From: Chitinophagaceae bacterium
GTDB lineage: Bacteria; Bacteroidota; Bacteroidia; Chitinophagales; Chitinophagaceae
Length of the DNA stretch: 64,000 bases
Direction: 5' to 3'
Assembly: GCA_035628135.1 (NCBI GenBank)
Contig: DASPKM010000004.1
Span: 362,596 to 426,595 of the forward strand
The notes below the pieces were generated by a model, which had not been told where the DNA came from, ran no database searches, and was given only the letters and a program-made list of their open reading frames with translations. The position numbers and the translations under genes are program-made. Each line of letters starts with the position of its first letter. Within the stretch, counting starts at the first letter, position 1. Shown here piece by piece: positions 18,846 to 64,000 of the stretch.

Positions 18846-18867
18846 CGCATTTGCCTTAGGCGACTAG

Positions 18868-41465: not shown

Positions 41466-42815
41466 TTATGGATTAATGATCTCGTTTTGCGGAGAGCGGA
41501 ACGATATCTCACGAAGGTTATTGAAAATGTCCTCCGGAATTGCTTCGATGCTATAATCAAAATACTTTTCATACATCTTATCGCTCCATACCAGGTCGTC
41601 GAACCATTTTGGGTCGGGATGTTTGGCCTTGGCCTGGAATACTTTGTAAGTCATTTCCGGCAAGCGGTGCTGTAAATACCGTATGGCATAACTTCCATCC
41701 TCCTCGTCCAGCACTTCCACTTTTCCACTGGTGATAGACATCACAGGTCCGCGGGCTGTGCGTGCCAATCCACAAACACTTTGGATAGCGCCCCGGTAAA
41801 TATTCAGCGCATCAATTAACGACTCTGCGAAGTAATGCTGTGCTCCTGTATCGCGCGGCAGGAACATATAATACGGTACACAACCCAGCCGCACCTGCTC
41901 AGACCAAAGCTGGGCCCAGGTAGCCGCGTCATTGTTGATGTTCCTAAGCAAAGGCGCTTGCGTCCTGATCTCCGCGCCTGTTTGCCGCACATTATATACA
42001 GCCTGGTGCAAAATATCAGGCTTTAATTCAGCAGGATGATTGAAATGCGCCATAAAAGCCAGGTGTCTCCCGGAAGCTACCACCCGCCGGAAGATCTTCA
42101 GCATTTCATCGGCTTCAGGATCGGTTACATATTTGTGCGGCCAGTACGATAAGGATTTACTGCCAATGCGGATGGTTTGCACGCTCTTTACTTCCAGCAA
42201 TGAATCGATGTACATTGCAAATATGCGGGGGCTCATCACCATTGGATCGCCACCGGTTATCAGCACGTCCGTAACCTGCGGATTCTTTTTCAGGTATTGA
42301 ATGAGCGGTGACAGCTCCTTGGCCTGCATCTTCAATTCAGGATCGTTCACGAACTGCGGCCAGCGAAAACAAAACGTGCAATACGCATGACAGGTTTGGC
42401 TGTGACTTGGAAAGAATAACAGCGTGGTGCGGTATTTATGCTGAATACCTTCTATACGCTGCCCCTCATCATCGAAAGGAATGTTGAGATAGGTTTGGCC
42501 TGCGGGATGCGGGTTGAGCGTAAGGCGGATCTGCTTCACCAGCTCGGGATGGTCCTCACGCTGCAACCTCCTGCTCCATTGTATTTTGTCGAAATGCTCA
42601 TCCGTCAACATTCCCTTCTGCGGAAAGTTCAGCCGGAAGACAGGATCGTCGGGAACATTTTTCCAATCTATGAGGTTGTTCAGTACATAGTTATTTGTCT
42701 TGAATGGGTATATCTCGCTTACAACCTTTATCTCTTCTACCTGTTTTTCACTCAGCAGTTTTATCTGCGGAATCAATTCCAGGTCCTTTATGGTAAATGA
42801 CTTGAACTTTAGCAT
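41466..42815 (-). CDS. radical SAM KamA-family (lysine/amino-acid 2,3-aminomutase-like) enzyme
   Basis: CHAYCTFC (CxxxCxxC) cluster motif and ITGGDPM motif. 449 aa, typical KamA size. Confidence 0.8.
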   Translation of the reverse strand: MLKFKSFTIKDLELIPQIKLLSEKQVEEIKVVSEIYPFKTNNYVLNNLIDWKNVPDDPVFRLNFPQKGMLTDEHFDKIQWSRRLQREDHPELVKQIRLTLNPHPAGQTYLNIPFDDEGQRIEGIQHKYRTTLLFFPSHSQTCHAYCTFCFRWPQFVNDPELKMQAKELSPLIQYLKKNPQVTDVLITGGDPMVMSPRIFAMYIDSLLEVKSVQTIRIGSKSLSYWPHKYVTDPEADEMLKIFRRVVASGRHLAFMAHFNHPAELKPDILHQAVYNVRQTGAEIRTQAPLLRNINNDAATWAQLWSEQVRLGCVPYYMFLPRDTGAQHYFAESLIDALNIYRGAIQSVCGLARTARGPVMSITSGKVEVLDEEDGSYAIRYLQHRLPEMTYKVFQAKAKHPDPKWFDDLVWSDKMYEKYFDYSIEAIPEDIFNNLREISFRSPQNEIINP

Positions 42816-42847
42816 GGTTAATGATTAAGTGATGAGTAATGGGTAAG

Positions 42848-43813
42848 CTATGCCATGCAGACCACGATCTTGCGCGGGCCTGTAAATGGCAGCCTGCCGT
42901 GGAGCGACACCATGTTCTCCACTATCAACAAATCACCGGCTTCCCAAGGCACCGGTATCAGCACTTCGTCGAGCACGCGCACGATTTCCTCGACATATTC
43001 TTTTTGTATCGGTGATCCATCGCCGTAAGTAGAATGCATAGGAAGCGCTTTCTCGTCGCCGCCGGCCATCATCAGCAGGGTTTCATATACTTCGTCGCCA
43101 TAAATGCGCGGGTAGAATTGGTCCACCTGGTTGAACCAAAGGCGGTCTCCGGTAATAGGATGTTTGCGGATGGCGGGCCTGGTCTGCGTTAAGCGAACAT
43201 CGCCGTTGCGCTGCCACTCCACCTTGATGCCATTGGTGGCGCAGTAAGCTTCCATGGTCTTTTTATCTTTTGTTTCGAATGCGTCTTGCCAGGAAGGACC
43301 GAATCCCTGCCCTGAATGCAGGTTGCGGATGTAGGTGATGCCCTTTCTTTCAAACTCGTCCACCAATGCCGGATTAAGCTTATCGAGCATCAGCCGGCAA
43401 TCGCCTACCGTGGTTTGTCCGCCGGTAGCTGCTGGCGTAATGCAACAGAAGTATAACCTGGAAGGCCAGATATTGGAATAAGAATACTCCGTATGCAGCC
43501 TTATAATGGCGTTGGCATCGTACTCCGAAGCATTGTACACGTTAGAAGTGTGCTTGCCGCGGGGAGAATTGCCATCCAGGAAATTCGGGGCATTGGGGCA
43601 AAGGAATTTGCCAAGGCTATCAAATTTTTCTACGGTGTCGGAGTGGATGCCCTTGATGAAGAGCGCTCCTACTTTCAGCAACTCTTCGTCGACAAAACTC
43701 CTGTTTTCCGTGTACCAGGAAGTAAAAGCATCGATATCGCTTCCTTCTTCAAATTGAATCACCATTGGTAGTTTCTCTTCACCAACGGTAACGGCGGCGG
43801 TGGCTAATTGCAT
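42848..43813 (-). CDS. TauD/TfdA-family Fe(II)/2-oxoglutarate dioxygenase (SyrP-like amino-acid beta-hydroxylase)
   Basis: HTE...H facial triad region (RLHTEYSY; SLHGR). Architecture and size match SyrP-type enzymes of NRPS clusters. Confidence 0.75.
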   Translation of the reverse strand: MQLATAAVTVGEEKLPMVIQFEEGSDIDAFTSWYTENRSFVDEELLKVGALFIKGIHSDTVEKFDSLGKFLCPNAPNFLDGNSPRGKHTSNVYNASEYDANAIIRLHTEYSYSNIWPSRLYFCCITPAATGGQTTVGDCRLMLDKLNPALVDEFERKGITYIRNLHSGQGFGPSWQDAFETKDKKTMEAYCATNGIKVEWQRNGDVRLTQTRPAIRKHPITGDRLWFNQVDQFYPRIYGDEVYETLLMMAGGDEKALPMHSTYGDGSPIQKEYVEEIVRVLDEVLIPVPWEAGDLLIVENMVSLHGRLPFTGPRKIVVCMA

Positions 43814-43901
43814 AGTTAATTGTTTTGGTGTGAATAAATGATATAAGGTAAAAGGAAGAAAAGAGATAGATAGTCAATAGGTCATTAAGTCAATGAGTCA
43901 A

Positions 43902-45539
43902 TTAGGGCATTGAGTCAATGACCAGATGACTTAATGATTCATTGACCAATTGGGGTTGGTATAACAATTCTCTTTCTCCATACAATCGTTCGGCGGTTAT
44001 ATTGCGTGAACGGCATTCCTGTATGAGTTTGTTGGATGCAACGATGGGATGGGCATCTTCACGGTAGCGCACACTGCTGATGAATTCAACCCAAGGTTCT
44101 AACCCCATGGCATACACGTACAGTTCTTTGGGTTGAAAAGTATCTACAAGGGCCTTGCCCCTGTCGTAGTTCGATCCTGCAAGCCGGCGCGATAGTTCTT
44201 TGTCGCGTTGTATCGTTTCATTCATCAATGGGCCATACACCCAGGTAAAGGGCGCGCCATCGCATTCCATGCCCAGGAAGATCACGTCAACCGGGTCGAT
44301 GAGCTGAACGATGCGGTCGTACAGCCGCGGTTCGATATTACAGGAATCAGCAAGGAACAGGAAGGACACTGCATCGAACTTTACGTTGTAGCAGATCTTC
44401 GATTGTATGTTCAGGTCCCCGTGCTCGCCCAGGAAAGGAAGGCCCGTGATCCTGCAATTGTTGAATGTAATGGTATCCATCTCCCCTATTTCCATCACAT
44501 TGTTGAACCCCATGGTGTTGAACAATAACTTCAGATTGGGATCCTGCAGGGTGCCAAAGCCATTGCGCGGGATGATGATCTTCTTTGCCTTGTGCCGAAG
44601 GCTAAGCATGGTTTCCAGCAGGATATGGTCTTGGTGGTTGTGCGTGATGAGGATGTAATCAATTTCATCGGGCAGGTCGCAATAAGAAAAACGTTCCAGC
44701 TCAGCCTGGTAACCATAATAACTGATCACAGGATCTACCAATATGGACACATCCCTTGTTTCCACCAATATGCAGGCGTGCCCGAAGTAGCGTATGCGCA
44801 CATTGTCGCCCGTATATTTTTCGTATGGGACCGGCGCTTCTTCGGTGAAGAACGACCTGAACACAGCTTCATCTTTTTCCTGTACGTTCAGCGCTTTTTT
44901 AATGCGCTGGTAATCGCCGGGCGCCGAACGCATGGCATGCAGCTCGTCTATCAGGCGGCTCCTGAAAGGTATTTTCAACTCAATAGCGTCTTCTTCAGGC
45001 AAACGTGGCGTGCTTAACACGAATGGGCGCTCGTCGTTCATGGTCACCCACATGGCAATGCTCTGTGCGCCTTCGTCGTAAAACTCGCTTTTGTACACCA
45101 GTTGTTCAAAGAATCGGAACGAGGGATGGCCGTTCAGGTCATACGTTAATTCTATGAGCCCTTTGAGCATGTCGGGCACTTGTGCGTATAAGGGTTCCAG
45201 TGAGTGGCCGTCCGCATTTTTGAGCAGGTTGTCCACCGCTTTAATGGCGTCGGCCAGCTCCAGCATATGCTTGCGCTGTTCCATGGTTTCCGCTATCAGC
45301 GCTTTTACTTCGGCTGTACGTACGGTAGCATAGTTCATGAAAGGGCCGCCGAGCATTTTTGGGTTCCTGGCCGCGGCAAAATGTACCTGCGGCGCCTGCA
45401 CATAGGAGTTCATGATCTTTAGATGCCGCGACAGGATATTCAAGGCATGCGTGGGCGGAAAAATCAGGTGCGTCCATGCATACCATTTGTCTACCAGTGG
45501 CTCCAATACCACATTGGGTTTAAGATACAGGTTTTGCAT
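43902..45539 (-). CDS. CmlA-like non-haem diiron beta-hydroxylase (N-terminal domain plus C-terminal MBL fold)
   Basis: C-terminal metallo-beta-lactamase motif ILITHNHQDH, a ~250-aa N-terminal domain, and a position immediately downstream of the NRPS. Confidence 0.6.
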   Translation of the reverse strand: MQNLYLKPNVVLEPLVDKWYAWTHLIFPPTHALNILSRHLKIMNSYVQAPQVHFAAARNPKMLGGPFMNYATVRTAEVKALIAETMEQRKHMLELADAIKAVDNLLKNADGHSLEPLYAQVPDMLKGLIELTYDLNGHPSFRFFEQLVYKSEFYDEGAQSIAMWVTMNDERPFVLSTPRLPEEDAIELKIPFRSRLIDELHAMRSAPGDYQRIKKALNVQEKDEAVFRSFFTEEAPVPYEKYTGDNVRIRYFGHACILVETRDVSILVDPVISYYGYQAELERFSYCDLPDEIDYILITHNHQDHILLETMLSLRHKAKKIIIPRNGFGTLQDPNLKLLFNTMGFNNVMEIGEMDTITFNNCRITGLPFLGEHGDLNIQSKICYNVKFDAVSFLFLADSCNIEPRLYDRIVQLIDPVDVIFLGMECDGAPFTWVYGPLMNETIQRDKELSRRLAGSNYDRGKALVDTFQPKELYVYAMGLEPWVEFISSVRYREDAHPIVASNKLIQECRSRNITAERLYGERELLYQPQLVNESLSHLVIDSMP

Positions 45540-45568
45540 TGTGATGAATTGTAAGTTTTGATTTGAAC

Positions 45569-57500: not shown

Positions 57501-60500
57501 AGCAGCAGCTCAGTTTCTTCCTGCGCCAGGTATGCATAATCGCTGACCGGCTTGCCGGGTTCTTCCAAAGCCGCGCCCAGCAAGCTATCCAGGTGCTGGC
57601 ACATGCGCTCGATACGCTCATCGTTGTATATGTCCGTATTGTATTCTATGCACAGCATAATACCGTCCGGCCTTTCACCGAAGTGGAAAGTGAGGTCGAA
57701 CTTGCTGATGGGAACTATCAACTCTGTGTCGGAAATTTCAACGCCATCCAGTACCGGCACTGGTTTTTCGCTGGTGTCTTCGTCGCTGCGGTTTTGCAGG
57801 GCCACCATTACATCAAACACCGCAGAGCGGCTCACATCGCGCGCAAGGTCCAGGTCTTCCACCAAACGATCGAACGGATATACCTGGTGGTTATATGCTT
57901 CCAGTGCGGTTTGTTTCACCTGCTGCAGCAATTCCCTGAAGCCAAGGTTGCCATCAAGCTGAGTGCGCAGCACCAATGTATTTACATAAAAACCAATTTG
58001 TCCTTCCAGGTCCGGATGTTCTCTTCCTGCTACCGGCGAACCGATGATGATGTCGGTCTGCCCGGTGTAGCGATATAACAACAACTTCACTGCAGCTACC
58101 AGGCCCATGAAGAGCGTAGCGTCCTGTTCGCGGTTGAGCGCAAGCAGTTTTTTCTGGCGCTCGGTCGGCAACCAATGATAGCGCTGCTTTCCATTGTGTG
58201 TTTTCACAGGCGGACGCGGACGGTCACCCGGCAGTTCCAGCACCGGCAACTCACCAGAAAGCTTATTCAGCCAGTATTGCTGGTGGGCGGCAAGGCTTTC
58301 GCCGCTTAATTCCTGCAGCTGCCAAACAGCATAATCCTTGTATTGGATTGGCAATGGGGCCAGCATGTTGTCCTTTCCTGCGCGGTGCGCATCGTACAAT
58401 GCCAACACTTCGCCTATCAATACGTTGATCGACCATTCGTCTGAAATAATGTGGTGGATGTTGCAGAGGAATAAATGCTCATCGTCTTTTATCCGCAACA
58501 ATTTTACTCTCAGCAAAGGTCCGCGTTGCAGATCGAATGGTTCTAATGAAGATGCCTGTATCTCATTTTGTGCGGCCAGCTCGGCGTCTTCCTCATTGCG
58601 TAAATCCTTATGATCGACTGCAAAGCCGCTTTGTTCGAATGGCAGTATCCGTTGGCGTGCTTCGCCATCCACCAATTCGAATACGGTGCGCAGGCTTTCA
58701 TGCCGTTGTACCAATTCATGGAAGGCCCACGACAATGCCGCTCCGTCCATTGTTCCCCTGAAGCGATAGCTTAGCGGAATGATGTATGCAAGCGACATTT
58801 CTTCGAACTGGTTCAATACCCACAAACGGCGTTGCGCATGCGAAATAGGATAAGTATCCTGTTCGGGCGCTTTATCTATAGGCTTGTAGGCTTGCCGGCG
58901 CGAATTGGTTACCAATAATGCCAGGTCAGACAATACTGAGTGCGTGAACAACTCTTTCAGCTCGAGCTTCACGGAAAGTTCCTTGTATATCCTCGACATT
59001 ACCTGCACCGCCTTGAGCGAATGGCCTCCGAGATCGAAGAAATTATCGGCCATGCCTACCTGCTGGCGGTTCAGCACTTCTTCCCAAATGGCAACCAGTT
59101 TCTTTTCGATGGTAGTGCGCGGCGGAATGTATTCTCTTGCGGGGCTTCCATCGGCCTGCGGCAATGCCTTCTTATCCACTTTACCGTTCGGGGTAAGCGG
59201 AATATTCTCTACCTGCACAAACCAGGCAGGGATCATATAATCTGGTAATTGCTGCTGCAGGTAGCTCTTCAGCGTGGGAGCATCCAATGTTTCATCCGAG
59301 GTAAAATAGCCCACCAGGAATTTATCGTCTTGTTTGGAGCGTGCGATCACCACCGCCTGCTTAATGGCAGGATGCGAAGCCAATGCACGTTCCACTTCAC
59401 CGGGCTCGATGCGGTAACCGCGGATCTTCACCTGCTCATCTATCCTGCCAAGGTATTCGATGGTGCCATCGGGCAGCCAGCGGCCGAGGTCACCCGTTTT
59501 GTACAGCTTGCTGCCGTCGTTTGTAAATGGATTGTCGATGAATTTTTGTTCTGTGAGCTCGGGACGGTTCAGGTAACCACGGGCCACCTGCGCGCCGCCA
59601 ACACATATTTCTCCCTTATTGCCGGACGTTACCAGCTTATGCGCTTTATCTACGATATATACCGTTCCATTGGTCACCGGCCTTCCTATCGGTAATGAGT
59701 AACTGTTATCTGCCAGTTCCCTGACATGGTGCTGTATCGCCGTTACCGTGATCTCGGTAGGACCATACTTATTATAAAATGCAACCCGATCCATCCATTT
59801 TGCAGCAAGTTCTTTTTTACACAGGTCGCCGCCGGCCACTACCCTTCTTAGGGCGCCCGCATTTTCTCCTTTCAGGTTCTCGAGGAATCCCGGGGTGGCG
59901 TGAAGGTGTGTAATGGATTGGTCGAGCACGAATTGCTCAAACGCATCGATATCGTATTGCAATCCCTGCGGGAACATTACCAACGATGCCCCGTTAAGCA
60001 ATGCAAGGAATATCTGTTCAACCGAAGCATCAAAACAGTAGTTGGAGAACTGCAATATCTTTTCATCACTGGTCATGCCAAAGAAATTGGTTTGGCCTTT
60101 TATGAAGTTCACCACGTTCCGGTGCTCTATCATTACGCCTTTCGGCTTGCCGGTAGACCCGGAAGTATAAATAATATAGGCAAGGTGGTTAGGTTGAATG
60201 TCCGGGTTGATGAATGTGTTGGCGCGCCCGTTGAATAATTCCTCGTCCAGTACAATGGTTTCGATGCCCGTTGTGGGTATTTTATCAACGACGGCTGGCG
60301 TGGTAATGATCATCGAAGCGCCGGTGTCTTCCAGCATGTAGCGGATACGATCGGCTGGATAATCAGGATCGATGGGAACATAAGCGCAGCCTGCTTTGAG
60401 AACACCCAGTATGGCAACGATCATTTCTATCGAACGGTCTATACAGATGGGGATGAGCATTTCCGTAACCGCTCCTTTGGCACTTAAATAATGCGCCAAG

Positions 60501-63500
60501 CGGTCTGCTTTTCCATTCAATTCAGCATAAGTGAGCCGCTCGTCTTTAAATATTATCGCAAAGTTATCGGGCGTATTTGCAACCTGTTGTTCGAACAGGC
60601 TTACGAGTGTATCATCCTGCGCACATTCTACGGTAGTAGCATTGTATTCCCGCAGGAGTTGGTCCACTTCTTCGTCGGCCAGGTACTCATACTCGTCCAA
60701 TGCCTTGTCAGGATCATCGGAAATGGCACCCAGCAAGCGGTCCAGGTGATAACACATTTTTTCGATCCGGGCTTCATTGAATATGTCCGTATTATACTCT
60801 ATTGAAAGCTGCAAACCATCCGGCCGTTCGCCGAAATGGAAGGTAAGGTCGAACTTGCTGATGGGGACTACCAGCGCGCTGTCTGATATCTCAACGCCAT
60901 CCAATGCGGGAGTATCGCTCTTGCCTTCTTCGTCGAGGTTTTCCAATGAAACCATTACATCGAATATGGCCGATCGGCTCATGTCGCGCGAAAGGTCGAG
61001 GTCTTCCACGAGCCTGTCGAATGGATATACCTGGTGATTATATGCCTCCAGCGCGGTTTGTTTCACTTCCTGCAACAATCCCCTGAAGCCTGCGCCGGCA
61101 TTAAATTGCGTGCGCAGCACCAGCGTGTTCACATAAAACCCTATCTGGTCTTCCAGGTCAGGATGTTCCCTACCGGCAACTGGCGAGCCAACAATAATAT
61201 CCTGCTGACCTGTGTAACGGTACAACAGCAGTTTAACGATCGCCACCAATCCCATGAAGAGCGTGGCATCCTGTTCGCGGTTCAGTGCGGAGAATTTTTC
61301 GAGACGGGCCGTGGGCAGCCAGCGATAACACTGTTTACCATTGTACGTTTTAACGGGCGGCCGCGGCCTGTCCCCTGCCAGCTCTATCACGGGCAGTTCT
61401 CCTGACAGCTTATTCAGCCAGTATTGCTGGTGGGTAGCAAGGCTTTCGCCACTCAGTTCCTGCAATTGCCAGGCGGCATAGTCCTTATACTGTATGCGCA
61501 ATGGTGGCAGCACATCTGCCTTGCCGCTGCGGTATGCATCGTACAATGCCAGTACTTCTCTTACCAATACATTGATAGACCACTCGTCGGATATAATATG
61601 ATGAATGTTGAAAAGGAACAAATGCTCATCGTCCTTTATTCTTAGCAGCTTAACCTTGAGCAGGGGGCCCCGTTCCAAATCGAATGGTTCAGCGGATGAT
61701 AGCTGTATCTCGGTTTGCGCTGCCAATTCCGGATCTTCCTCGTTACGCAAATCCTTGTGATCAACCGCAAAACCGCTTTGCTCAAACGTGAGTATCCTTT
61801 GCCGTGCCTCTCCATCCACCAACTCGAATACGGTGCGCAGGCTTTCATGCCGCTCTACCAACGCGTGGAACGCCCAGGCCAACGCTTCGCCATCCAGCAT
61901 GCCTTTGAACCGGTAGCTCATTGGAATGATATACGCCAGTGCAACTTCTTCGAACTGGTTCAGCACCCACAAACGGCGTTGCGCATGCGAAATTGGATAA
62001 GTATCCTGCTCTTCCACCCGCTCGATTTGCTTGTATGCCTGCCTGCGCGAATTGGCCACCAGTGCCGCAAGGTCCGACAGAATAGCATGTGTAAACAGGT
62101 CCTTCAATTCCAGCTTTACCGACATGTCCTTGTAAATCCTCGACATTACCTGCACGGCCTTAAGGCTGTGCCCGCCCATTTCAAAGAAATTATCGGCCAT
62201 GCCAACCTGCTCGCGGTTCAATACCGATTGCCATATGCCCGCAAGCTTTTTCTCTATGGAATTGCGGGGTGCTATGTATTCTTTTACAGATCTGCCTTGT
62301 GGATCGGGCAAGGCCTTCTTATCGATCTTTCCATTGGGAGTGAGCGGAATGCTTTCCAGCGGGATCAGCCAGGACGGGACCATGTGCGCCGGCAACTGGC
62401 CCGAAAGCCATGAACGTACTTCCTCGGGGTCGAGTGTTGTGGAAGGAACATAATAACCCACCAGGGATTTTTCGTTTTGCCAATTGTATGCTGTAACCAC
62501 GGCCTGCGTAATATTCTCGTGCGAGGTGAGCGCTTGTTCCACTTCGCCCAGTTCGATCCGATAGCCACGGATCTTTACCTGGTGGTCGTAGCGGCCCGTA
62601 AATACCACTCTTCCGTCGGGCAGCCAATAGCCAGTGTCACCGGTCCTGTATAACCGGCCGTCGCCAAATGGGTTTGCAATAAATTTTTCTGCTGTAAGTT
62701 CTTCGCGGTTATGGTATCCTCTTGCCAGGCCTGCGCCCCCAATGCAAATTTCTCCGCGCACGCCAATTCCCTGCAATTGCATTTTCTCGTCTACGATGTA
62801 CACTGTGCGGTTTGCAATAGGCTTGCCGACTATGTTCGTATTCGCCAATGAATCCACCTTATTGTATGTAGTGCAAATGGTAGATTCCGCGGGACCGTAA
62901 GTATTATAAACAGGAACTTTTTCAATGAGCTTATCGATATAGCTTGCTTTCAATTCATCGCCGCCGCTCAGGATCACGCGTAAAGAAGAAAGTCCATCCT
63001 GTAATTGATTGAGCCCGTTGATCACCAATGGGGTCGTACTGATAATGGTCACCTGCTCCTCGTCGATGATCGATGCGAGGGCTTCTATATCCCTTCCACC
63101 TTCTTTGGCTATTACCAGTTTGGCGCCTGTTGAAAGCGGCGCAAATACTTCTTCCACCATGGTATCAAATGCAACCGAACACTGCTGCACAACGGCATCT
63201 TCGTGGGTAATGTTGAAGTAGTTAACAACGGTTTGGATGTAATCTGCTATGGAAGCGTGTTCAATCAGCACGCCCTTGGGTTTGCCGGTAGAACCGGACG
63301 TATAGATCACTTGCGCCAGTTGGTGTGGTGCAGGCAGAGACAATGGATCATGCGTTTCACATGCATCGACAGCAGGCTGTGCTTCCTGCAATAACACCGC
63401 ATTTTCAAAGCCACGCTTATCAGTCAGCAATAGTTTAACCGAAGCGTCCTGTAATAAATAATTGATCCTTTCTTCGGGATAATCAGGATCTATAGACAGG

Positions 63501-64000
63501 AAAGCCGCGCCTGATTTGAGTATGGCCAATAAAGTAATTACGGTTTGTTCGGACCGGTCTACGAGCGAACCTACCAATTCACCAGGTTGTACATCGAAAG
63601 TAGTGCGCAGGTAGTGCGCAAGCCGGTTGGCCCGTTCATTTAATTCCCGGTAGGTGATCCTGTAATCTCCGGCAACCAGTGCAATGGCATTTGGATAGTT
63701 TGCAACGCTCTGCGCGAACATGTCCACCACGGTACGTGGTTCATAATGGAAGGCGGTATTGTTGAACTCCTGTTGAATGAGCAATTGCTCATCCACGGTA
63801 AGGTACTGCAACTGCTGCAGCGATTGTGCAGGTTGTTCTATTATGGTTGACAACAACTGCTGCAAGTACTTTGCAATGCGTTCGATGCGCTCACGGTCAT
63901 AGATGTCCATGTTGTATTCAATCGACATCATCATGCCGTCGGCCGCTTCACGGAAGAAGAAAGTGAGGTCAAACATGCTTACGGGAATGGCCAGTGCATT
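45569..64000 (-). CDS. non-ribosomal peptide synthetase, 3' part (at least 6 C-A-PCP modules plus terminal thioesterase); the gene continues past the window end
   Basis: 6135-aa in-window ORF with no in-frame stop up to position 64000. Six PCP motifs FF(E/D)(L/M)GGHSLKAV, six A-domain cores (YTSGSTGxPKGV), C-domain HHI(I/V)SD(E/G)WS motifs, and a C-terminal GFSFAALMAYETAKLL (GxSxG) thioesterase. Confidence 0.95.
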   Translation of the reverse strand, partial: NALAIPVSMFDLTFFFREAADGMMMSIEYNMDIYDRERIERIAKYLQQLLSTIIEQPAQSLQQLQYLTVDEQLLIQQEFNNTAFHYEPRTVVDMFAQSVANYPNAIALVAGDYRITYRELNERANRLAHYLRTTFDVQPGELVGSLVDRSEQTVITLLAILKSGAAFLSIDPDYPEERINYLLQDASVKLLLTDKRGFENAVLLQEAQPAVDACETHDPLSLPAPHQLAQVIYTSGSTGKPKGVLIEHASIADYIQTVVNYFNITHEDAVVQQCSVAFDTMVEEVFAPLSTGAKLVIAKEGGRDIEALASIIDEEQVTIISTTPLVINGLNQLQDGLSSLRVILSGGDELKASYIDKLIEKVPVYNTYGPAESTICTTYNKVDSLANTNIVGKPIANRTVYIVDEKMQLQGIGVRGEICIGGAGLARGYHNREELTAEKFIANPFGDGRLYRTGDTGYWLPDGRVVFTGRYDHQVKIRGYRIELGEVEQALTSHENITQAVVTAYNWQNEKSLVGYYVPSTTLDPEEVRSWLSGQLPAHMVPSWLIPLESIPLTPNGKIDKKALPDPQGRSVKEYIAPRNSIEKKLAGIWQSVLNREQVGMADNFFEMGGHSLKAVQVMSRIYKDMSVKLELKDLFTHAILSDLAALVANSRRQAYKQIERVEEQDTYPISHAQRRLWVLNQFEEVALAYIIPMSYRFKGMLDGEALAWAFHALVERHESLRTVFELVDGEARQRILTFEQSGFAVDHKDLRNEEDPELAAQTEIQLSSAEPFDLERGPLLKVKLLRIKDDEHLFLFNIHHIISDEWSINVLVREVLALYDAYRSGKADVLPPLRIQYKDYAAWQLQELSGESLATHQQYWLNKLSGELPVIELAGDRPRPPVKTYNGKQCYRWLPTARLEKFSALNREQDATLFMGLVAIVKLLLYRYTGQQDIIVGSPVAGREHPDLEDQIGFYVNTLVLRTQFNAGAGFRGLLQEVKQTALEAYNHQVYPFDRLVEDLDLSRDMSRSAIFDVMVSLENLDEEGKSDTPALDGVEISDSALVVPISKFDLTFHFGERPDGLQLSIEYNTDIFNEARIEKMCYHLDRLLGAISDDPDKALDEYEYLADEEVDQLLREYNATTVECAQDDTLVSLFEQQVANTPDNFAIIFKDERLTYAELNGKADRLAHYLSAKGAVTEMLIPICIDRSIEMIVAILGVLKAGCAYVPIDPDYPADRIRYMLEDTGASMIITTPAVVDKIPTTGIETIVLDEELFNGRANTFINPDIQPNHLAYIIYTSGSTGKPKGVMIEHRNVVNFIKGQTNFFGMTSDEKILQFSNYCFDASVEQIFLALLNGASLVMFPQGLQYDIDAFEQFVLDQSITHLHATPGFLENLKGENAGALRRVVAGGDLCKKELAAKWMDRVAFYNKYGPTEITVTAIQHHVRELADNSYSLPIGRPVTNGTVYIVDKAHKLVTSGNKGEICVGGAQVARGYLNRPELTEQKFIDNPFTNDGSKLYKTGDLGRWLPDGTIEYLGRIDEQVKIRGYRIEPGEVERALASHPAIKQAVVIARSKQDDKFLVGYFTSDETLDAPTLKSYLQQQLPDYMIPAWFVQVENIPLTPNGKVDKKALPQADGSPAREYIPPRTTIEKKLVAIWEEVLNRQQVGMADNFFDLGGHSLKAVQVMSRIYKELSVKLELKELFTHSVLSDLALLVTNSRRQAYKPIDKAPEQDTYPISHAQRRLWVLNQFEEMSLAYIIPLSYRFRGTMDGAALSWAFHELVQRHESLRTVFELVDGEARQRILPFEQSGFAVDHKDLRNEEDAELAAQNEIQASSLEPFDLQRGPLLRVKLLRIKDDEHLFLCNIHHIISDEWSINVLIGEVLALYDAHRAGKDNMLAPLPIQYKDYAVWQLQELSGESLAAHQQYWLNKLSGELPVLELPGDRPRPPVKTHNGKQRYHWLPTERQKKLLALNREQDATLFMGLVAAVKLLLYRYTGQTDIIIGSPVAGREHPDLEGQIGFYVNTLVLRTQLDGNLGFRELLQQVKQTALEAYNHQVYPFDRLVEDLDLARDVSRSAVFDVMVALQNRSDEDTSEKPVPVLDGVEISDTELIVPISKFDLTFHFGERPDGIMLCIEYNTDIYNDERIERMCQHLDSLLGAALEEPGKPVSDYAYLAQEETELLLQTYNSTAAEYPADKSIVDLFEEQAAITPSGIALEFEDKQLTYQELNYKADRVAAHLLTKGATAEMPVPVCIDRSPELIIAILGILKAGCAYVPIDPKYPADRIRYMLQDTGASMIISSQSIVDKISGDNVDVILLSDELLSVRLLRKEPFGHVHPASLAYIMYTSGSTGTPKGVMVTHGNVVSLVKGTEHVSSDVDDILLSTGSASFDATTFEYWSMLLNGGRLVMCAEEKLLDTALLKDEITNRRVSKMWFTSSWFNQVVDSDITVFEGLQTILVGGEKLSERHIGKLKESYPSINIINGYGPTENTTFSLIYAIQGEEVRRSIPIGCPLNNRKVYILDKHRKLVAIGNPGEICVGGAGLSRGYLNREELTAEKFIDDPFSDEPGAKLYRTGDLGRWLTDGNIEYLGRMDEQVKIRGYRIEPGEIENMLTAFPGINQAVVVVRTTQEDKFLAGYFTADETIDAVAVKEYLKQRLPDYMVPAWLLQIESMPLTPNGKVDKKALPQADGRPVVEYIPPRTTIEKQLAAIWQEVLNCERVGMADHFFDMGGHSLKAVQVMTKIYKELSVKLGLNDLFTHPVLADLAALVTNSRREAYKPIERVEEQDTYAVSHSQRRLWVLNQFEEVAAAYNIPMTYSFTGELDTNALTLAFETLVQRHESLRTVFEMVDGEPRQRILTYEQSGFAVEYADLRNEEDPKKAAQAVMQSAAVEPFDLQHGPLLRVKLLHIQDDEYKFLLNIHHIVSDGWSNNVLIQDVLALYEAYHNNKEANLPPLIIQYKDYAAWQLQELSGDNLVAHQQYWLDKLSGELPVLQLAGDKPRPAVKTYNGKEWGVKLPAQYREQFLAMVREQDATLFMGSVALVKLLLYRYTGQQDIIVGSPVAGREHPDLEFQIGFYVNTLALRTQLDANDNFRQLLQRVKETSLGGFEHQVYPFDRLVEDLNLPRDMSRSPLFDVMVTFTNHVAGSKNDTEAMSEVDVSNDDSVTLPISKFDLTFNFTEHADGILLCIEYNTDIYTDERIEQMGGHVQRLLDAIFAEPAKPLHAYEYLSQEEQKQLLQDFNNTTVDYPQDRTIIDLFEQQVANAPANLALSHGERQLTYEQLNEKATDLARHLLQKGITPEMPVPVCIHRSIDLIVAMLGIMKAGGAYVPVDPEYPADRIRYMLEDTGATIFITTKPVLDKINSEGISAILIDDELPSLHFQTTTPLRPHSHNLAYIIYTSGSTGKPKGVMIEHRNLANLIEWHKRVFGVSASSRATTMAGVGFDAFGVETWPYLSAGASIHIVDDHTRVVPQLLLQQLTNDEITHSYMPTALVPDFVKASRNVEMSLRYVFTGGDKLLSLDIQGLAYKIVDNYGPAENTIVTTIYTLAEVNKDVMPPIGKPIDNTSVYILGSEKQLQPVGVPGEIYIAGAGLARGYFNREALTQERFASNPYANDGSKIYRTGDLGRWLPDGNIEFMGRIDEQVKIRGYRIELGEIENVLATYPGIRKAVVILRTTHNDRFLVCYYTADVALNAVELREFLRQQLPDYMVPAWLLQLENIPLTPNGKVDRKALPQADGRPLVEYIPPRSTIEKQLVAIWQEILDREQVSMADNFFDLGGHSLKAVQVMTRIYKDLSVKLELNELFTHAVLADLAVLVTNSRREAYKPIERVEEQETYPVSHSQRRLWVINQFEEVNAAYNIPISYKFVGELDRDALERAFHALVARHESLRTVFEIVNGEPRQRILSVEETRFAVTYKDLRDEEDPKKAARDEMQSAAVETFDLLHGPLLRVTLLHVQDNEYHFLLNVHHIVSDGWSNNVMIQDTLALYEAYHTGKEPDLVPLTIQYKDYAAWQLQELEGEALAGHQQYWLNKLSGELPILELAGDRPRPPVKTYSGNEFGIKLSAAHREKLLALVREHDATLFMGALAAVKLLLYRYTGQQDIIIGTPVAGREHPDLEFQIGFYVNTLALRTRFDAQDSFIQLLQKIKETSLGGYQHQVYPFDRLVEDLKLPRDLSRSALFDVMVTVTNYAEASKNDTEVMADVDVSNDDSFNLPNSKFDLTFNFAERPDGMLFSIEYNTDIFNESSIERMCRHMERLLEAALDEPTKPLHAYEYLSADEVNQLLHDYNNTMVEYPKEKTIVDLLNEQAAKTPGNLALASGDQRLTYEELEEAANRLAGYLIAKGITPETPVPICMGRSAQVIVAMLAVLKAGAAYVPIDPGYPVDRIRYMLEDVHASIIISTKSIAEKLVGTNADIILLDDESIADHLQVCTFTQLHIQPEQLAYIIYTSGSTGRPKGVMIEHRGFVNLIEWQKRVSEVSDSSKVISISGIGFDAFGFEVWPHLAAGASVYIMDDEKRVSAKHILQELITIEATHCFIATALVPEFVKASRNIDLSLRYLLTGGDKLLSLDTSGLCYRIVNNYGPTENTVVATHYVLAENKRDIIPPIGSPIDNTRVYILGPEKQLQPAGVPGEICIAGTGIARGYLNQESLTQERFIPNPFAGEGAKMYKTGDLGRWLPDGNIEYMGRIDQQVKMRGYRIELGEIENVMTAHHAIAQAVVVMQSKRDDKFLVGYYTAEEAVEPAALKEYLRQQLPDYMIPAWLVQIESIPLTPNGKVDKKALPQADGRPVVEYIPPRTAIEKQLVAIWQEVLGIAQVGMADNFFDLGGHSLKAVQVMTRIYKDLSVRLELNELFTHGVLSELALLVTNSRREAYKPIERVPEQETYPISHSQRRLWVLNQFEEVAVAYNIPITYTFVGDLDREALEKAFDTLVQRHESLRTVFEVVNGEPRQRILPAAESKCAVEYIDLRNESESLQIAQAEMQAAAVQPFDLQHGPLLRVKLLHVKDNEYHFLLNVHHIISDGWSNNVLIQDVLALYDAYHKGKEPNLPDLTIQYKDYAAWQLQELEGENLATHQQYWLDKLSGELPVLSIPGDRPRPPVKTYNGNVLYVNFSAEHRDKLLALVRDQDATLFMGVLAMVKLLLYRYTGQQDMIVGSPVAGREHPDLEFQIGFYVNTLALRTQFDQHDSFIQLLQQVKDTALDAYRHQVYPFDRLVEDLDLARDMSRSALFDVMVTLTNNVEGNENDTEVMGGIDVSNDDASLNMPISKFDVSFFFAETTRGLSLGLEYNTDIFNTERIERMGNHLQALLDAVLSDPAQPLHTYQYIDEQEKEKLLQPNKDVQVDEAPVNTAVQRFEAQAAQTPDAIAVISGDAKLTYKELNEKANQLAHYLIEEHSVVPEELVGLRMERDEWLVIAILGVFKSGAAYLPIDMNYPSDRVQYMLQNSAAKLVLDSDNPPTLGNYSTDNPVNSAQPNHLAYVIYTSGSTGEPKGVMIEHHSVVNMLNGVGDEISITASDVLLAVTTHAFDMSVVEILLPLVTGAQLVLASNDAIRDVRQLSALIGSTRPTIMQATPGLWNMLASTAWEGSKDLRIISGGESIPQALAEHLLQCTGKVWNMYGPTEVTVYATQVQLQSADEVVLIGKPLRNTQAYILDEHMQLVGQGIPGTLYIGGAGLARGYINREDLTAERFVQNPFAEGERLYNTGDICCWVGDGRIRYFGRNDDQVKIRGYRIEPGEVEKVLRETTGIQQGVIVCKEKKDDKFLVAYYTADTVIPVNTIRNYMRSKLPDFMMPSWFVQLEKMPLTPNGKIDKKALPEPDKRSDKQYIAPRNAMEEKLAAIWMDVLEREKVGVEDNFFELGGHSLKAVQMMSFINKAFGSKLTLKDVLNGPTVESLAKVIAYGNYMKGTVIHLNNIRPGRQNIYFVPALIGSSIMYMGLAAELDNQFNCYGLQDQGFDADAPFAEHVDAKVKHYMDEILAIHDKEEEIVLFGFSFAALMAYETAKLLERNGHRVKLVVLDSSIRTRKAKKARKEDTEEVAKALNEDFEWSAGQLRTVGFSDEDVVRIKELWLHNISLRNNYVMSGPINGEIMALKARDNVDDDFVNMKKWKKFTTNKFSHFYVLGNHYDVLALPKNMLIISEHLSKLCAPGK
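45572..46330 (-). other. NRPS thioesterase (TE) domain
   Basis: Last ~255 aa, with a GxSxG nucleophile elbow (GFSFAA) after PCP6. Confidence 0.7.
46330..49440 (-). other. NRPS module 6 (C6 about 48110..49440; A6 about 46540..48110; PCP6 about 46330..46540)
   Basis: PCP GGHSL codons at 46433..46447, A-domain core YTSGSTGEPKGV at about 47560..47600, C-domain HHIISDG at about 48962..48985. Boundaries approximate (within about 100 nt). Confidence 0.6.
49441..52590 (-). other. NRPS module 5 (C-A-PCP)
   Basis: PCP GGHSL codons at 49538..49552. Boundaries estimated from the ~3.15-kb module periodicity. Confidence 0.55.
52591..55740 (-). other. NRPS module 4 (C-A-PCP)
   Basis: PCP GGHSL codons at 52694..52708. 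Confidence 0.55.
55741..58910 (-). other. NRPS module 3 (C-A-PCP)
   Basis: PCP GGHSL codons at 55844..55858. Confidence 0.55.
58911..62060 (-). other. NRPS module 2 (C-A-PCP)
   Basis: PCP GGHSL codons at 59015..59029. Confidence 0.55.
62061..64000 (-). other. NRPS module 1 (truncated C, A1, PCP1)
   Basis: PCP GGHSL codons at about 62168..62182. Only the last ~60 aa of the C domain lie inside the window. Confidence 0.55.

What the first reader, a model, noticed from the sequence alone, without database searches (positions are those of the whole stretch)
41466..64000. NRPS biosynthetic gene cluster: NRPS of at least six modules with terminal TE, CmlA-like diiron beta-hydroxylase, SyrP/TauD-like hydroxylase and KamA-like aminomutase
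Four co-directional minus-strand genes separated by only 30 to 90 nt form an apparent operon. The first is a giant NRPS whose in-window part is (C)-A-PCP followed by five complete C-A-PCP modules and a TE; its N-terminus lies beyond position 64000. All C domains are LCL-type (HHIISDEWS/HHIVSDGWS) and no E or MT domains are seen. The second is an MBL-fold protein with the CmlA architecture (HxHxDH), as in beta-hydroxylases acting on PCP-tethered amino acids. The third is a TauD/TfdA dioxygenase of the SyrP type, which makes beta-hydroxy-Asp in syringomycin. The fourth is a KamA-family radical SAM 2,3-aminomutase. The predicted product is a peptide of six or more residues, released by the TE, probably cyclic or a depsipeptide. 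It would carry one or two beta-hydroxylated residues and possibly a beta-amino acid. Chitinophagaceae are known producers of beta-hydroxy-amino-acid-rich lipodepsipeptides, but the N-terminal part (starter C domain or loading module) is out of view. I cannot assign this to a known compound family.
Basis: partly seen in the sequence, partly recalled or inferred. Interest (0 to 1): 0.6.

Follow-up and report, generated by a model that had tools for sequence, protein, structure and literature searches.

The report
Orphan NRPS operon with aminomutase cassette
This is a real but uncharacterised gene cluster for a non-ribosomal peptide from an uncultured Bacteroidota bacterium; its one unusual part is a conserved set of three tailoring genes that includes a divergent radical-SAM aminomutase, which probably supplies a beta-amino acid other than beta-lysine.

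Summary
Four co-directional minus-strand genes with gaps of 29, 88 and 32 nt encode a giant NRPS, a CmlA-type diiron hydroxylase, a TauD-type Fe/2-oxoglutarate oxygenase and a KamA-like radical-SAM protein. The in-window NRPS reads C-tail, A-T, five C-A-T modules, then TE, with no E or MT domains.

The longest public contig ends inside the NRPS gene, so the gene is at least 7408 aa with at least 7 A domains. Its start is unknown.

The new finding is that the order NRPS, (CmlA), TauD, KamA recurs in eight other Bacteroidota loci. These include Chitinophaga pendula, C. agri, C. filiformis, Flavobacterium aestivum and Sphingobacterium lactis. The tailoring genes are 55-65% identical across loci, while the NRPS ends are only 37-43% identical.

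The KamA-like protein is not an orthologue of lysine 2,3-aminomutase. It scores below every curated cut-off. Arg321 aligns with the lysine-binding Asp293. It is about 50% identical to genes in ammonia-oxidising archaea and Sideroxydans that sit in osmoadaptation neighbourhoods. Nitrosopumilus maritimus accumulates beta-glutamate, so a glutamate-type aminomutase is my best guess.

The SyrP/beta-hydroxy-Asp reading is not supported, because no visible A domain has an Asp or Asn code. I found no characterised counterpart. This is an orphan NRPS cluster with an undescribed tailoring cassette, of moderate interest.

The parts
45569..64000 (-). NRPS gene. The 3' 18.4 kb lies in the window. It encodes 6143 aa of a product of at least 7408 aa.
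   Evidence: The frame is open to base 64000. Pfam finds C, A, PP and TE domains only. The 7408-aa product on the source contig abuts the contig end.
62051..64000 (-). In-window module 1: C-domain tail (63815-64000), A domain with code DTESLGTICK (Lys-like), and T domain.
   Evidence: Motifs. Code. It shares 6 of 10 positions with the published Lys code DTEDVGTVVK.
58904..62008 (-). Module 2: C (HHIISDEWS), A with code DAEHVGKVTK (unassigned), T.
   Evidence: A similar code, DAEHIGEVTK, occurs in the C. pendula cluster.
55733..58861 (-). Module 3: C (HHIISDEWS), A with code DAFWLGGTFK (Val-type), T.
   Evidence: The Val assignment rests on my memory of the canonical code DAFWIGGTFK.
52583..55690 (-). 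Module 4: C (HHIVSDGWS), A with code DAVYFGNIVK (hydrophobic residue, Leu/Ile-like), T.
49427..52540 (-). Module 5: C (HHIVSDGWS), A with code DAFFLGNVVK (Leu-type), T.
   Evidence: It matches 9 of 10 positions of the canonical Leu code DAWFLGNVVK, which is itself seen in F. aestivum.
46322..49384 (-). Module 6: C (HHIISDGWS), A with code DMVQIGMVYK (Gly-like small pocket), T.
   Evidence: The same or a near-identical code occurs in 5 of 7 related clusters.
45572..46258 (-). Terminal thioesterase domain. The nucleophile motif is GFSFA.
   Evidence: PF00975 at 8e-16. Motif.
43902..45539 (-). CmlA-family non-haem diiron beta-hydroxylase, 545 aa. HNHQDH lies at window 44625-44642.
   Evidence: PF18456 at 2.3e-91. 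PDB 8A90 at 1.2e-140 and CmlA 4JO0 at 4.3e-121, both full length.
42848..43813 (-). TauD/TfdA-family Fe(II)/2-oxoglutarate oxygenase, 321 aa. HTE lies at residues 107-109 and LHGR at 304-307.
   Evidence: PF02668 at 1.9e-35. Orthologues are 56-62% identical and lie next to the KamA-like gene in every locus looked up.
41466..42815 (-). Divergent KamA-family radical-SAM/PLP enzyme, 449 aa. Features: C142/C146/C149, R151, R284, R321-D322, and G364-K365.
   Evidence: TIGR00238 at 125.7 bits, below the 199.2 cut-off. Profile against 2A5H at 6.8e-27. AF2 model with pLDDT 83.7, whose best fold match is 2A5H at E 1e-16 and TM 0.60-0.66. Invariant residues.
40254..41192 (-). OxyR-like LysR regulator, 273 nt downstream of the operon. 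Probably not part of the cluster.
   Evidence: Pfam HTH_1 plus LysR_substrate. NCBIfam OxyR at 216 bits, below its 329 cut-off. Absent at this position in the related loci.

Best explanation
This is the 3' part of an orphan NRPS biosynthetic operon from an uncultured Bacteroidota bacterium.

Shown:
- One giant synthetase has at least seven A domains by length. Six are visible, in strictly collinear C-A-T modules without E or MT domains, ending in a type I TE.
- Three tailoring genes follow in the same operon.
- These three genes form a cassette that recurs behind otherwise different Bacteroidota NRPSs.

Inferred from the A-domain codes:
- The visible part assembles ...-Lys-like-X-Val-(Leu/Ile-like)-Leu-(Gly-like), all L-configured. 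The TE releases the peptide, possibly by cyclisation.

Inferred from family membership:
- The CmlA-type diiron enzyme beta-hydroxylates a carrier-protein-bound hydrophobic residue, such as one of the Val or Leu-type residues.
- The KamA-like enzyme uses a [4Fe-4S] cluster, SAM and PLP to shift the amino group of a free alpha-amino acid from C2 to C3.

Inferred from residues and from relatives:
- Its substrate is not lysine and is most likely an acidic amino acid, glutamate, giving beta-glutamate.

Speculative:
- The strictly co-occurring TauD-type oxygenase acts on the same building block, for example by hydroxylating the methylene next to the shifted amine. The result would be a hydroxylated beta-amino acid that one of the unassigned A domains (DAEHVGKVTK, or the unseen upstream one) loads.
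For: Architecture: Pfam and motif analysis.

Operon: gaps of 29, 88 and 32 nt.

The cassette is conserved. The order NRPS-(CmlA)-TauD-KamA is seen in:
- a Bacteroidota MAG, L001
- C. pendula, C. agri and F. aestivum
- S. lactis
- two metagenome contigs, L173 and L175
- C. filiformis

Across these loci TauD is 56-62% identical, KamA 58-62% and CmlA 55-65%. The last NRPS module plus TE is only 37-43% identical. In an NJ tree the TauD-linked KamA sequences form one clade of 41 representatives.

CmlA: full-length matches to CmlA structures, and an HxHxDH motif.

KamA-like cofactor sites and fold:
- CX3CX2C is present.
- R151 aligns with LAM R134.
- The GK motif lies where LAM K337 is expected.
- LAM is the top fold match by a wide margin.

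Not lysine-type:
- All equivalog scores are 96-110 bits against cut-offs of 369-650.
- In a gapless stretch between the PYY and (H/Y)F anchors, LAM Asp293 aligns with the invariant Arg321.
- A further family-specific invariant Arg, R284, is present.

Lead towards an acidic substrate:
- Relatives at about 50% identity occur in hundreds of ammonia-oxidising archaea, next to an MscS channel and a glutamine synthetase.
- In Sideroxydans the relative sits between a sucrose-phosphate synthase/phosphatase, a PfkB kinase, two MscS channels and a Na+/H+ exchanger.
- N. maritimus holds 730 mM beta-glutamate (PMC8269262).
Against: - No substrate was tested.
- Arg321 is followed by an invariant Asp322, so a one-residue register shift would put an Asp at the Asp293 site.
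- My mapping of LAM Asp330 and Lys337 rests on a hand alignment and on my memory of the LAM C-terminus.
- The BGC clade and the archaeal clade differ at residues next to the key sites: LP versus V[VA] before Arg321, and GPVMS versus GPSMS. Their substrates may therefore differ.
- A1 and A2 have Glu at code position 239, which is typical of basic substrates. This would fit beta-lysine.
- All six visible A domains keep Asp235, so none looks like a dedicated beta-amino-acid domain.
- The protein scores only 104.9 bits against the curated glutamate 2,3-aminomutase model, whose cut-off is 650.
- In some relatives the partner gene is a class III aminotransferase instead of TauD. I cannot explain this.
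- In L174 the cassette has no NRPS within 10 kb.
- The A-code assignments for Val, Leu and Gly rest on codes recalled from memory.
Confidence: 0.6

Rival explanations
1. The KamA-like enzyme is an ordinary lysine 2,3-aminomutase. It supplies beta-lysine to the Lys-like A domain, as VioP and VioO do in viomycin. TauD and CmlA are independent beta-hydroxylases of other residues.
For: Several sources label homologues 'L-lysine 2,3-aminomutase'. The A1 code DTESLGTICK resembles the published Lys code DTEDVGTVVK. A1 and A2 both carry Glu239. The invariant Asp322 lies next to the Asp293-equivalent position.
Against: The AblA and EpmB equivalog scores are 110 and 97 bits, against cut-offs of 525 and 369. 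Asp293 aligns with Arg321, and the Asp330 position is a variable V/I/S/C. Close relatives in archaea and Sideroxydans have no adjacent AblB-type acetyltransferase, and N. maritimus accumulates beta-glutamate. The strict pairing with TauD is left unexplained.
Confidence: 0.2
2. The three tailoring enzymes work one after another on a single residue. They make one heavily modified building block, and the cassette is a self-contained 'unusual amino acid' module that is passed between NRPS clusters.
For: CmlA, TauD and KamA occur together in the window, F. aestivum, L175, C. filiformis and C. agri. They also occur together in L174 without any NRPS within 10 kb, alongside a second TauD/CsiD-type gene and a MacB-type permease. 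The tailoring genes are more conserved than the NRPSs.
Against: CmlA is missing from C. pendula, S. lactis, L173 and the visible part of L001, while TauD-KamA stays. CmlA-type enzymes act on carrier-bound residues, whereas KamA-type enzymes act on free amino acids (established knowledge of both families).
Confidence: 0.12
3. The KamA-like protein is not an aminomutase. It performs some other radical-SAM/PLP chemistry, or it has a role unrelated to the peptide, for example making an osmolyte as in its archaeal relatives, and is merely co-transcribed.
For: It falls below the family cut-off for TIGR00238 and for Pfam Radical_SAM. No member of this subfamily has been characterised in anything I could search.
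Against: Its position at the 3' end of NRPS operons is conserved in eight other loci from different genera. Its fold is LAM-like over the full length. The cluster cysteines, the carboxylate-binding Arg and the GK motif are all conserved. Every characterised KamA-family enzyme is a 2,3-aminomutase (established knowledge).
Confidence: 0.08

Closest known systems
Chitinopeptin biosynthetic gene clusters of Chitinophaga eiseniae and C. flava (Brinkmann et al. 2022, PMC9248904)
   Same: They are Bacteroidota NRPS clusters for peptides rich in beta-hydroxy amino acids. They include a CmlA-like metallo-beta-lactamase-fold hydroxylase gene and a terminal TE.
   Different: Chitinopeptin lines have 14-16 modules, in-line E domains, an N-methyltransferase and sbnA/sbnB for Dap. 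They have a starter C domain or a PKS module, and three beta-hydroxy-Asp residues. The window has none of these in its visible part. It has a TauD plus KamA pair that is not listed among the genes that paper describes for its clusters ('aminomutase' occurs 0 times in the text).
CmlA, the diiron beta-hydroxylase of chloramphenicol biosynthesis (PDB 4JO0, 5KIK), and the related 'non-heme diiron monooxygenase' PDB 8A90
   Same: The architecture is the same over the full length: a CmlA_N domain plus an MBL fold with HxHxDH. E-values are 1e-121 to 1e-140.
   Different: The substrate here cannot be p-aminophenylalanine, because the visible A domains point to aliphatic residues. I could not establish which carrier domain it docks on.
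Lysine 2,3-aminomutase KamA of Clostridium subterminale (PDB 2A5H)
   Same: It is the only solved structure with significant sequence similarity and the best fold match. The CX3CX2C motif, the Arg that binds the alpha-carboxylate and the predicted PLP lysine are shared.
   Different: Identity is only 17-19% in the structural alignment. The protein scores below the TIGR00238 cut-off. Arg321 aligns with LAM Asp293, one of the two lysine-binding aspartates, and Val358, a variable position, with Asp330 (the roles of these LAM residues are from my knowledge of Lepore et al. 2005).
Glutamate 2,3-aminomutases: the Clostridioides difficile type (Ruzicka and Frey 2007; NCBIfam TIGR04368) and the methanogen type (Tunckanat et al. 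2022, cited)
   Same: They have the same predicted chemistry and the same logic of replacing the lysine-binding Asp with a basic residue. They are likewise linked to beta-glutamate as an osmolyte in archaea.
   Different: The protein scores 104.9 bits against TIGR04368, whose cut-off is 650, so it is not a member of that family. From memory, the methanogen enzyme has an N-terminal extension of about 160 aa. This protein lacks one. I could not read that paper.
Viomycin and capreomycin clusters (VioP/CmnP lysine 2,3-aminomutase with a beta-lysine-activating A domain), from my own knowledge
   Same: They are a precedent for a KamA-family enzyme encoded in an NRPS cluster to supply a beta-amino acid.
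   Different: Those enzymes are genuine lysine aminomutases. They are not paired with a TauD-type gene as a fixed two-gene unit, and they occur in actinomycetes.

Membership tests
Multimodular (type A, collinear) NRPS | Repeated C-A-T modules with Pfam Condensation, AMP-binding and PP-binding domains | tested here: met
   One search gives 7 Condensation stretches across the two overlapping halves scanned, 6 AMP-binding and 6 PP-binding. Spacing is a regular 1036-1055 aa.
Multimodular (type A, collinear) NRPS | Catalytic motifs: HHxxxDG in C, the A3/A8/A10 cores in A, and the GGxS phosphopantetheine site in T | tested here: met
   Two C domains have HHxxxDE instead of DG, but both His and the Asp are kept.
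Multimodular (type A, collinear) NRPS | Chain release by a C-terminal thioesterase with a Ser nucleophile | tested here: met
   PF00975 at 8.1e-16. The motif is GFSFA rather than GxSxG, and the Ser is present.
Multimodular (type A, collinear) NRPS | A loading module or starter C domain that defines the N-terminus | not testable with these tools
   The window and the longest public contig both end inside the gene. Three attempts to reach the upstream sequence failed.
CmlA-family diiron beta-hydroxylases | CmlA_N domain fused to an MBL fold with the HxHxDH metal motif, alignable over the full length to CmlA | tested here: met
   PF18456 at 305.7 bits against a cut-off of 25. 4JO0 residues 7-532 align with query residues 6-525. 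HNHQDH lies at 300-305.
CmlA-family diiron beta-hydroxylases | Acts on an aminoacyl thioester bound to a carrier protein | not testable with these tools
   This needs biochemistry. It is only inferred from the family.
TauD/TfdA Fe(II)/2-oxoglutarate oxygenases | Pfam TauD above the gathering score, with an HxD/E...H triad and an Arg after the distal His | tested here: met
   123.5 bits against a cut-off of 27. H107-x-E109 and L-H305-G-R are conserved in five orthologues. I assigned the triad by motif only.
   None of the six visible A domains has a DLTK-type Asp or Asn code. The unseen upstream module(s) could still have one. Asn codes do occur in three related clusters.
KamA family (TIGR00238) radical-SAM 2,3-aminomutases | Score above the curated family cut-off | tested here: not met
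   125.7 bits against a cut-off of 199.2. The E-value of 1.9e-36 still shows homology.
KamA family (TIGR00238) radical-SAM 2,3-aminomutases | CX3CX2C cluster motif, PLP-binding Lys, and the LAM fold | tested here: met
   C142/C146/C149. The invariant G364-K365 lies at the position expected for LAM K337 (hand alignment). Foldseek top hit is 2A5H at E 1e-16 and TM 0.60-0.66, with the next hit at 5e-05.
Lysine 2,3-aminomutase (AblA/KamA/EpmB equivalogs) | Equivalog score, and the two Asp residues that bind the lysine epsilon-amine (Asp293 and Asp330 in 2A5H) | tested here: not met
   TIGR03820 at 109.6 bits against 525.4, and TIGR03821 at 97.4 against 369.3. Asp293 aligns with Arg321. The Asp330 position is V/I/S/C.
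Glutamate 2,3-aminomutase (TIGR04368) | Equivalog score above the cut-off | tested here: not met
   104.9 bits against a cut-off of 650. A glutamate substrate therefore remains a functional guess and is not a family assignment.
Chitinopeptin gene cluster family | 14-16 modules with in-line E domains, an N-MT domain, sbnA/sbnB, and Asp-activating modules | tested here: not met
   The window has no E or MT domains, no sbnA/B within 41 kb downstream, and no Asp codes.

The most novel reading that the evidence does not exclude
The TauD-KamA pair is a previously undescribed two-enzyme unit that makes a hydroxylated beta-amino acid from glutamate, for example 3-amino-2-hydroxyglutarate or beta-glutamate itself, for incorporation into Bacteroidota non-ribosomal peptides. 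The KamA subfamily it belongs to would also be the still unassigned beta-glutamate synthase of ammonia-oxidising archaea. That would make it a third, independent lineage of glutamate 2,3-aminomutases.
Probability: 0.25. Interest if true: 0.7.

Novelty: new variant of a known kind. Interest (0 to 1): 0.45.

Why it matters
Orphan NRPS clusters are common, and this one on its own is ordinary. Two things are worth following up.

1. A fixed TauD plus KamA-like (often plus CmlA) cassette travels between different Bacteroidota NRPS lines. It therefore marks a family of peptides that share one unusual building block. Several carriers are cultured: C. filiformis, C. pendula, C. agri, F. aestivum and S. 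lactis. The chemistry can be tested directly in them.

2. The same KamA subfamily is nearly universal in marine ammonia-oxidising archaea, where it sits beside mechanosensitive channels. These organisms hold beta-glutamate at near-molar levels. In the literature I could search, no gene has been assigned to making it. A single enzyme assay could settle both questions.

Tried and rejected
1. Recovering the NRPS N-terminus failed.
- The protein search with the first 1200 in-window residues returned only proteins of 2100 aa or less, at 46% identity or less, and not the parent protein.
- An exact 49-mer from the window edge was absent from the JGI metagenomes.
- A protein-guided scan of the metagenomes gave nothing above 39% identity.
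- The ENA contig itself ends inside the gene.

2. I searched full-text literature for the six unassigned Stachelhaus codes and their prefixes. There were no relevant hits, apart from the Lys code DTEDVGTVVK.

3. I searched the literature for a named glutamate aminomutase in ammonia oxidisers, and for a KamA gene in a Bacteroidota NRPS cluster. Nothing turned up. The key paper on methanogens (Tunckanat 2022) is not held. A search for the Asp293/Asp330 residue names found only an unrelated paper.

4. The promoter and terminator scan of the operon found fewer promoter-like sites than the shuffles and about as many terminator-like sites. It is not suited to Bacteroidota.

5. The TauD homologue search returned only generic 'TauD/TfdA family dioxygenase' names. 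PDB neighbours of TauD are a plant clavaminate-synthase-like protein and a sulfoquinovose dioxygenase, which say nothing about function.

6. A phmmer search of the KamA C-terminal third against the PDB gave no usable alignment for mapping Lys337.

7. I rejected chance adjacency of the KamA-like gene, because the order is conserved in eight other loci. I rejected membership of the chitinopeptin family. I rejected a role for the rest of the window in the cluster: positions 1-41 kb hold unrelated regulators, hydrolases, a SIR2-CHAT protein and similar genes.
Full report
**What is in the sequence**

Four ORFs lie head to tail on the minus strand: 45569 to beyond 64000, 43902-45539, 42848-43813 and 41466-42815. 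The gaps between them are 29, 88 and 32 nt. A 273-nt gap then separates them from an OxyR-like LysR gene.

The ORF tool lists the first gene as starting at an ATG at 63976. The frame is in fact open to base 64000. The residues before that Met (NALAIPVS) continue the C-terminal motif seen in every other C domain of the protein.

Pfam finds only Condensation, AMP-binding, AMP-binding_C, PP-binding and one Thioesterase domain. Core motifs give six A3/A8/A10 sets, six GGHSL carrier sites, five HHxxxD[GE] motifs and one TE serine, with a period of 1036-1055 aa. That period leaves no room for epimerisation or methyltransferase domains. There is no second HH[LIVM]xxxxGD motif of the dual E/C type. 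The C1 motifs read SH[AS]QRRLWV[LI], which to my knowledge is the LCL pattern.

**Size of the synthetase**

The CmlA-like protein is found, identical in sequence, on five public contigs. The longest is ENA ERZ27257312 k141_1658920, 431,005 bp, where the NRPS product is recorded as 7408 aa.

The locus is record 397111-418748, reversed, and the NRPS stop is at locus position 9971. A product of 7408 codons plus a stop therefore begins at record position 431,004, one base from the contig end. The product also carries the '?' flag used for genes that touch a contig end.

So 7408 aa is a lower bound. There are 1265 aa beyond the window. At the observed period this is enough for the rest of the cut C domain, one more A-T pair, and about 200 aa of a further C domain. 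This is an inference from length only.

The start of the assembly line is unknown. I could not retrieve it.

**A-domain codes**

I aligned each A domain to the GrsA-PheA fragment. I supplied that sequence from memory, and it returns the canonical code DAWTIAAICK, which validates the numbering. The ten-residue codes are:

| A domain | Code |
|---|---|
| A1 | DTESLGTICK |
| A2 | DAEHVGKVTK |
| A3 | DAFWLGGTFK |
| A4 | DAVYFGNIVK |
| A5 | DAFFLGNVVK |
| A6 | DMVQIGMVYK |

- A1 shares 6 of 10 positions with DTEDVGTVVK, a code published as Lys (bioRxiv 10.1101/121228).
- A3 is one residue from the Val code DAFWIGGTFK. A5 is one residue from the Leu code DAWFLGNVVK. A6 is a conservative variant of the Gly code DILQLGLIWK. 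These three reference codes are from memory.
- A2 and A4 are unassigned. A4 looks aliphatic.
- No code is of the Asp or Asn type.

**The hydroxylases**

The 545-aa protein has a CmlA_N domain (2.3e-91) and an MBL fold with HNHQDH. It aligns end to end with CmlA (4JO0, 4.3e-121) and with the 'non-heme diiron monooxygenase' 8A90 (1.2e-140). This is a secure family assignment. Hydroxylation of a carrier-bound hydrophobic residue is the expected role, but that is inferred.

The 321-aa protein is a clear TauD/TfdA member at 123.5 bits. Its motifs are H107-x-E109 and H305-G-R. Its PDB neighbours and the names of its database homologues say nothing about its substrate. The SyrP/beta-hydroxy-Asp reading lacks its partner, because no visible module activates Asp or Asn.

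**The KamA-like protein**

It has the CX3CX2C motif (C142, C146, C149). It matches TIGR00238 at 1.9e-36, but its 125.7 bits are below the 199.2 cut-off. It scores about equally, at 96-110 bits, against the curated models for lysine, glutamate and arginine 2,3-aminomutases and for EpmB. Those cut-offs are 369-650. It is therefore a separate deep branch of the family.

A profile built from 19 members aligns to lysine 2,3-aminomutase 2A5H at 6.8e-27. An AlphaFold model has a mean pLDDT of 83.7. It finds 2A5H as by far the best fold match, at E 1e-16 and TM 0.60-0.66, with the next hit at 5e-05.

In the profile alignment the stretch from PYY to (H/Y)F has no gaps. This places the invariant Arg321 opposite LAM Asp293, and R151 opposite LAM R134. 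By hand, using the equal 15-residue spacing between SG and GK, K365 falls on the PLP lysine K337 and the variable residue 358 on Asp330. This step relies on my memory of the LAM C-terminus.

From my knowledge of Lepore et al. 2005 and Ruzicka and Frey 2007, Asp293 and Asp330 hold the lysine epsilon-amine. They are replaced by Lys and Asn in the clostridial glutamate 2,3-aminomutase. An invariant Arg at that site, together with a second family-specific invariant Arg (R284), points to an anionic side chain.

One caveat applies. Asp322 is also invariant, and a one-residue register shift cannot be excluded without coordinates.

**Relatives outside NRPS clusters**

A scan of one genome per species found at least 587 relatives. 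The best 80 are about 50% identical, and most are from Nitrosopumilus and other ammonia-oxidising archaea.

In those loci the gene is flanked by a divergently transcribed MscS-type channel (65 of 80 loci) and followed by a glutamine synthetase (46 loci).

The MscS association recurs in unrelated bacteria. In Sideroxydans the gene sits between a sucrose-phosphate synthase/phosphatase fusion, a PfkB kinase, an MscS channel, a Na+/H+ exchanger and a second MscS channel. That is an osmoadaptation neighbourhood.

N. maritimus contains 730 mM beta-glutamate, its most abundant identified metabolite (PMC8269262). I found no paper that assigns a gene to this. The methanogen glutamate 2,3-aminomutase of Tunckanat et al. 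2022 is cited, but I could not read it.

The parsimonious reading is that this subfamily makes beta-glutamate. It is an inference.

**The cassette**

Every relative above about 57% identity that I looked up lies directly after a TauD orthologue. All but one (L174) lie at the 3' end of an NRPS operon.

| Locus | Gene order |
|---|---|
| C. pendula (L085) | NRPS 7219 aa - TauD - KamA |
| C. agri (L087) | NRPS - TauD - KamA - type II TE - CmlA |
| F. aestivum (L088) | NRPS 5101 aa - CmlA - TauD - KamA |
| S. lactis (L169) | NRPS - TauD - KamA |
| Metagenome contig L173 | NRPS 3797 + 2954 aa - TauD - KamA |
| Metagenome contig L175 | NRPS 5106 aa - CmlA - TauD - KamA |
| C. filiformis (L176) | NRPS 5080 aa - CmlA - TauD - KamA |
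| Bacteroidota MAG (L001) | NRPS - TauD - KamA |
| L174 | TauD/CsiD - CmlA - TauD - KamA - MacB, no NRPS within 10 kb |

TauD, KamA and CmlA are 56-62%, 58-62% and 55-65% identical to the window copies. The last NRPS module plus TE is only 37-43% identical.

The visible modules also differ between clusters:
- C. filiformis: Asn - Gly-like - Asn
- C. pendula: Ser-like - DAEHIGEVTK - Ser-like
- C. agri: DAKQVALILK - Asn - Asn
- L173: DAKQVALILK - Asn - Gly-like
- F. aestivum and L175: Gly-like - Leu

In an NJ tree of the 120 best hits, the TauD-linked proteins form one clade of 41 representatives. More basal members, at 51-55% identity, are paired with a class III aminotransferase instead of TauD. 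The archaeal and other bacterial proteins form the sister group.

The tailoring genes thus behave as a unit that has been combined with different synthetases. This rules out chance adjacency. It also suggests that TauD and the KamA-like enzyme work on the same building block. Which A domain loads that building block cannot be decided from the C-terminal halves I could see.

**Surroundings**

Nothing else in the window looks biosynthetic. Downstream of the operon lie:
- an OxyR-like regulator
- a GH109-type oxidoreductase
- two DUF1801 proteins
- a T9SS-sorted amylase-like protein
- a SIR2-CHAT protein
- ankyrin, SPFH and ECF-sigma genes
- two-component regulators and hydrolases

No transporter, MbtH, PPTase or acyl-ligase gene is in view. 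If present, they lie upstream of the NRPS, beyond the contig end. The T9SS domain and the homologue taxonomy indicate Bacteroidota. A family-level assignment was not possible.

**Comparison with known systems**

The only characterised Chitinophaga NRPS family I could examine is the chitinopeptin family. It differs in module number, E and MT domains, Dap supply and Asp content. A full-text search for aminomutase together with NRPS and Bacteroid* returned nothing relevant. No MIBiG comparison could be run.

**Verdict**

Two specific readings need correction:
- the SyrP-type Asp hydroxylase reading
- the implied lysine-type aminomutase

The cluster is an ordinary kind of object with one undescribed feature, the conserved TauD-KamA(-CmlA) cassette built around a new KamA subfamily. 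I rate it as a new variant of a known kind, with moderate interest (0.45).

Noticed in passing
window 63976-64000: The ORF lister reports the NRPS as a complete 6135-aa ORF starting at the ATG at 63976. No stop codon lies upstream in frame, and the reading frame continues to the window edge. The listed start is an artefact of the window boundary.
   Followed up: yes
L081 (ENA ERZ27257312 k141_1658920), record positions about 408778-431004: The '7408-aa' NRPS product on the 431,005-bp source contig starts one base from the contig end. Even the longest public assembly truncates the gene.
   Followed up: yes
L002-L080 (for example L003 10001-11236) and L074 6587-14525: The KamA subfamily is present in hundreds of ammonia-oxidising archaea, next to an MscS channel and a glutamine synthetase. 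In Sideroxydans it sits inside a block of sucrose-phosphate synthase, PfkB kinase, MscS channels and a Na+/H+ exchanger. It is a candidate for the unassigned beta-glutamate synthase of Nitrosopumilus.
   Followed up: partly
window 60653-62008 and 57506-58861; L087, L088, L173, L175, L176; L085: The C domains of in-window modules 2 and 3 carry HHIISDEWS, with Glu in place of the usual Gly of HHxxxDG. The same DEWS variant is found in the related clusters, and C. pendula has HHIAFDAWS. I saw no consistent link to a particular donor or acceptor A-domain code.
   Followed up: partly
L170 9262-11740, L171 8528-11338, L172 10001-12669: More basal members of the KamA subfamily, at 51-55% identity, are paired with a class III aminotransferase instead of TauD. 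Two of the three lie inside other biosynthetic clusters. One cluster has a CmlA-like gene, a LanC-like gene and a sulfotransferase. The other, in Puia, has an NRPS, a TonB receptor and a penicillin-amidase-like gene. I have no explanation for this alternative partner.
   Followed up: partly
L174 6326-13779: In an 8.9-Mb genome the order TauD/CsiD-like, CmlA-like, TauD, KamA-like and a MacB-type permease occurs without any NRPS gene within 10 kb on either side. Housekeeping genes lie upstream and multihaem cytochrome genes downstream.
   Followed up: no
L087 residues about 245-589 of the visible NRPS; L173 131-8995 (first A domain): A divergent A domain with code DAKQVALILK recurs in two cassette-bearing clusters. 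It scores 199-230 bits where its neighbours score above 300, and its A3 core does not match the SG[ST][TS]GxPK pattern I used. It is a candidate for an unusual substrate, and nothing like it is visible in the window.
   Followed up: no
window 33216-35486: A 756-aa protein combines a SIR2_2 domain with a CHAT protease domain. This architecture is reminiscent of anti-phage defence effectors. It lies on the strand opposite to the neighbouring T9SS amylase-like gene.
   Followed up: no
window 16000-20000: A low-GC stretch (0.37-0.39, against 0.45-0.52 elsewhere) holds several small minus-strand ORFs. Most have no Pfam match, and one is a DUF6934 protein. It may be a foreign or mobile insert.
   Followed up: no
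window 25114-25581 and 38305-38775: Two DUF1801 paralogues lie 13 kb apart. An ECF sigma factor gene (25780-26301) overlaps the start of a 405-aa ORF (26285-27502) that has no Pfam match and could be an anti-sigma factor.
   Followed up: no
L085 19506-21299 and L086 (C. pendula): About 8 kb downstream of the C. pendula cassette lies a PvcA (DIT1_PvcA) plus TauD pair, followed by a flavin monooxygenase. This is the signature of an isonitrile pathway and is unrelated to the finding. The same NRPS gene is called as 7219 aa in one C. pendula assembly and as 5943 aa in the other.
   Followed up: no
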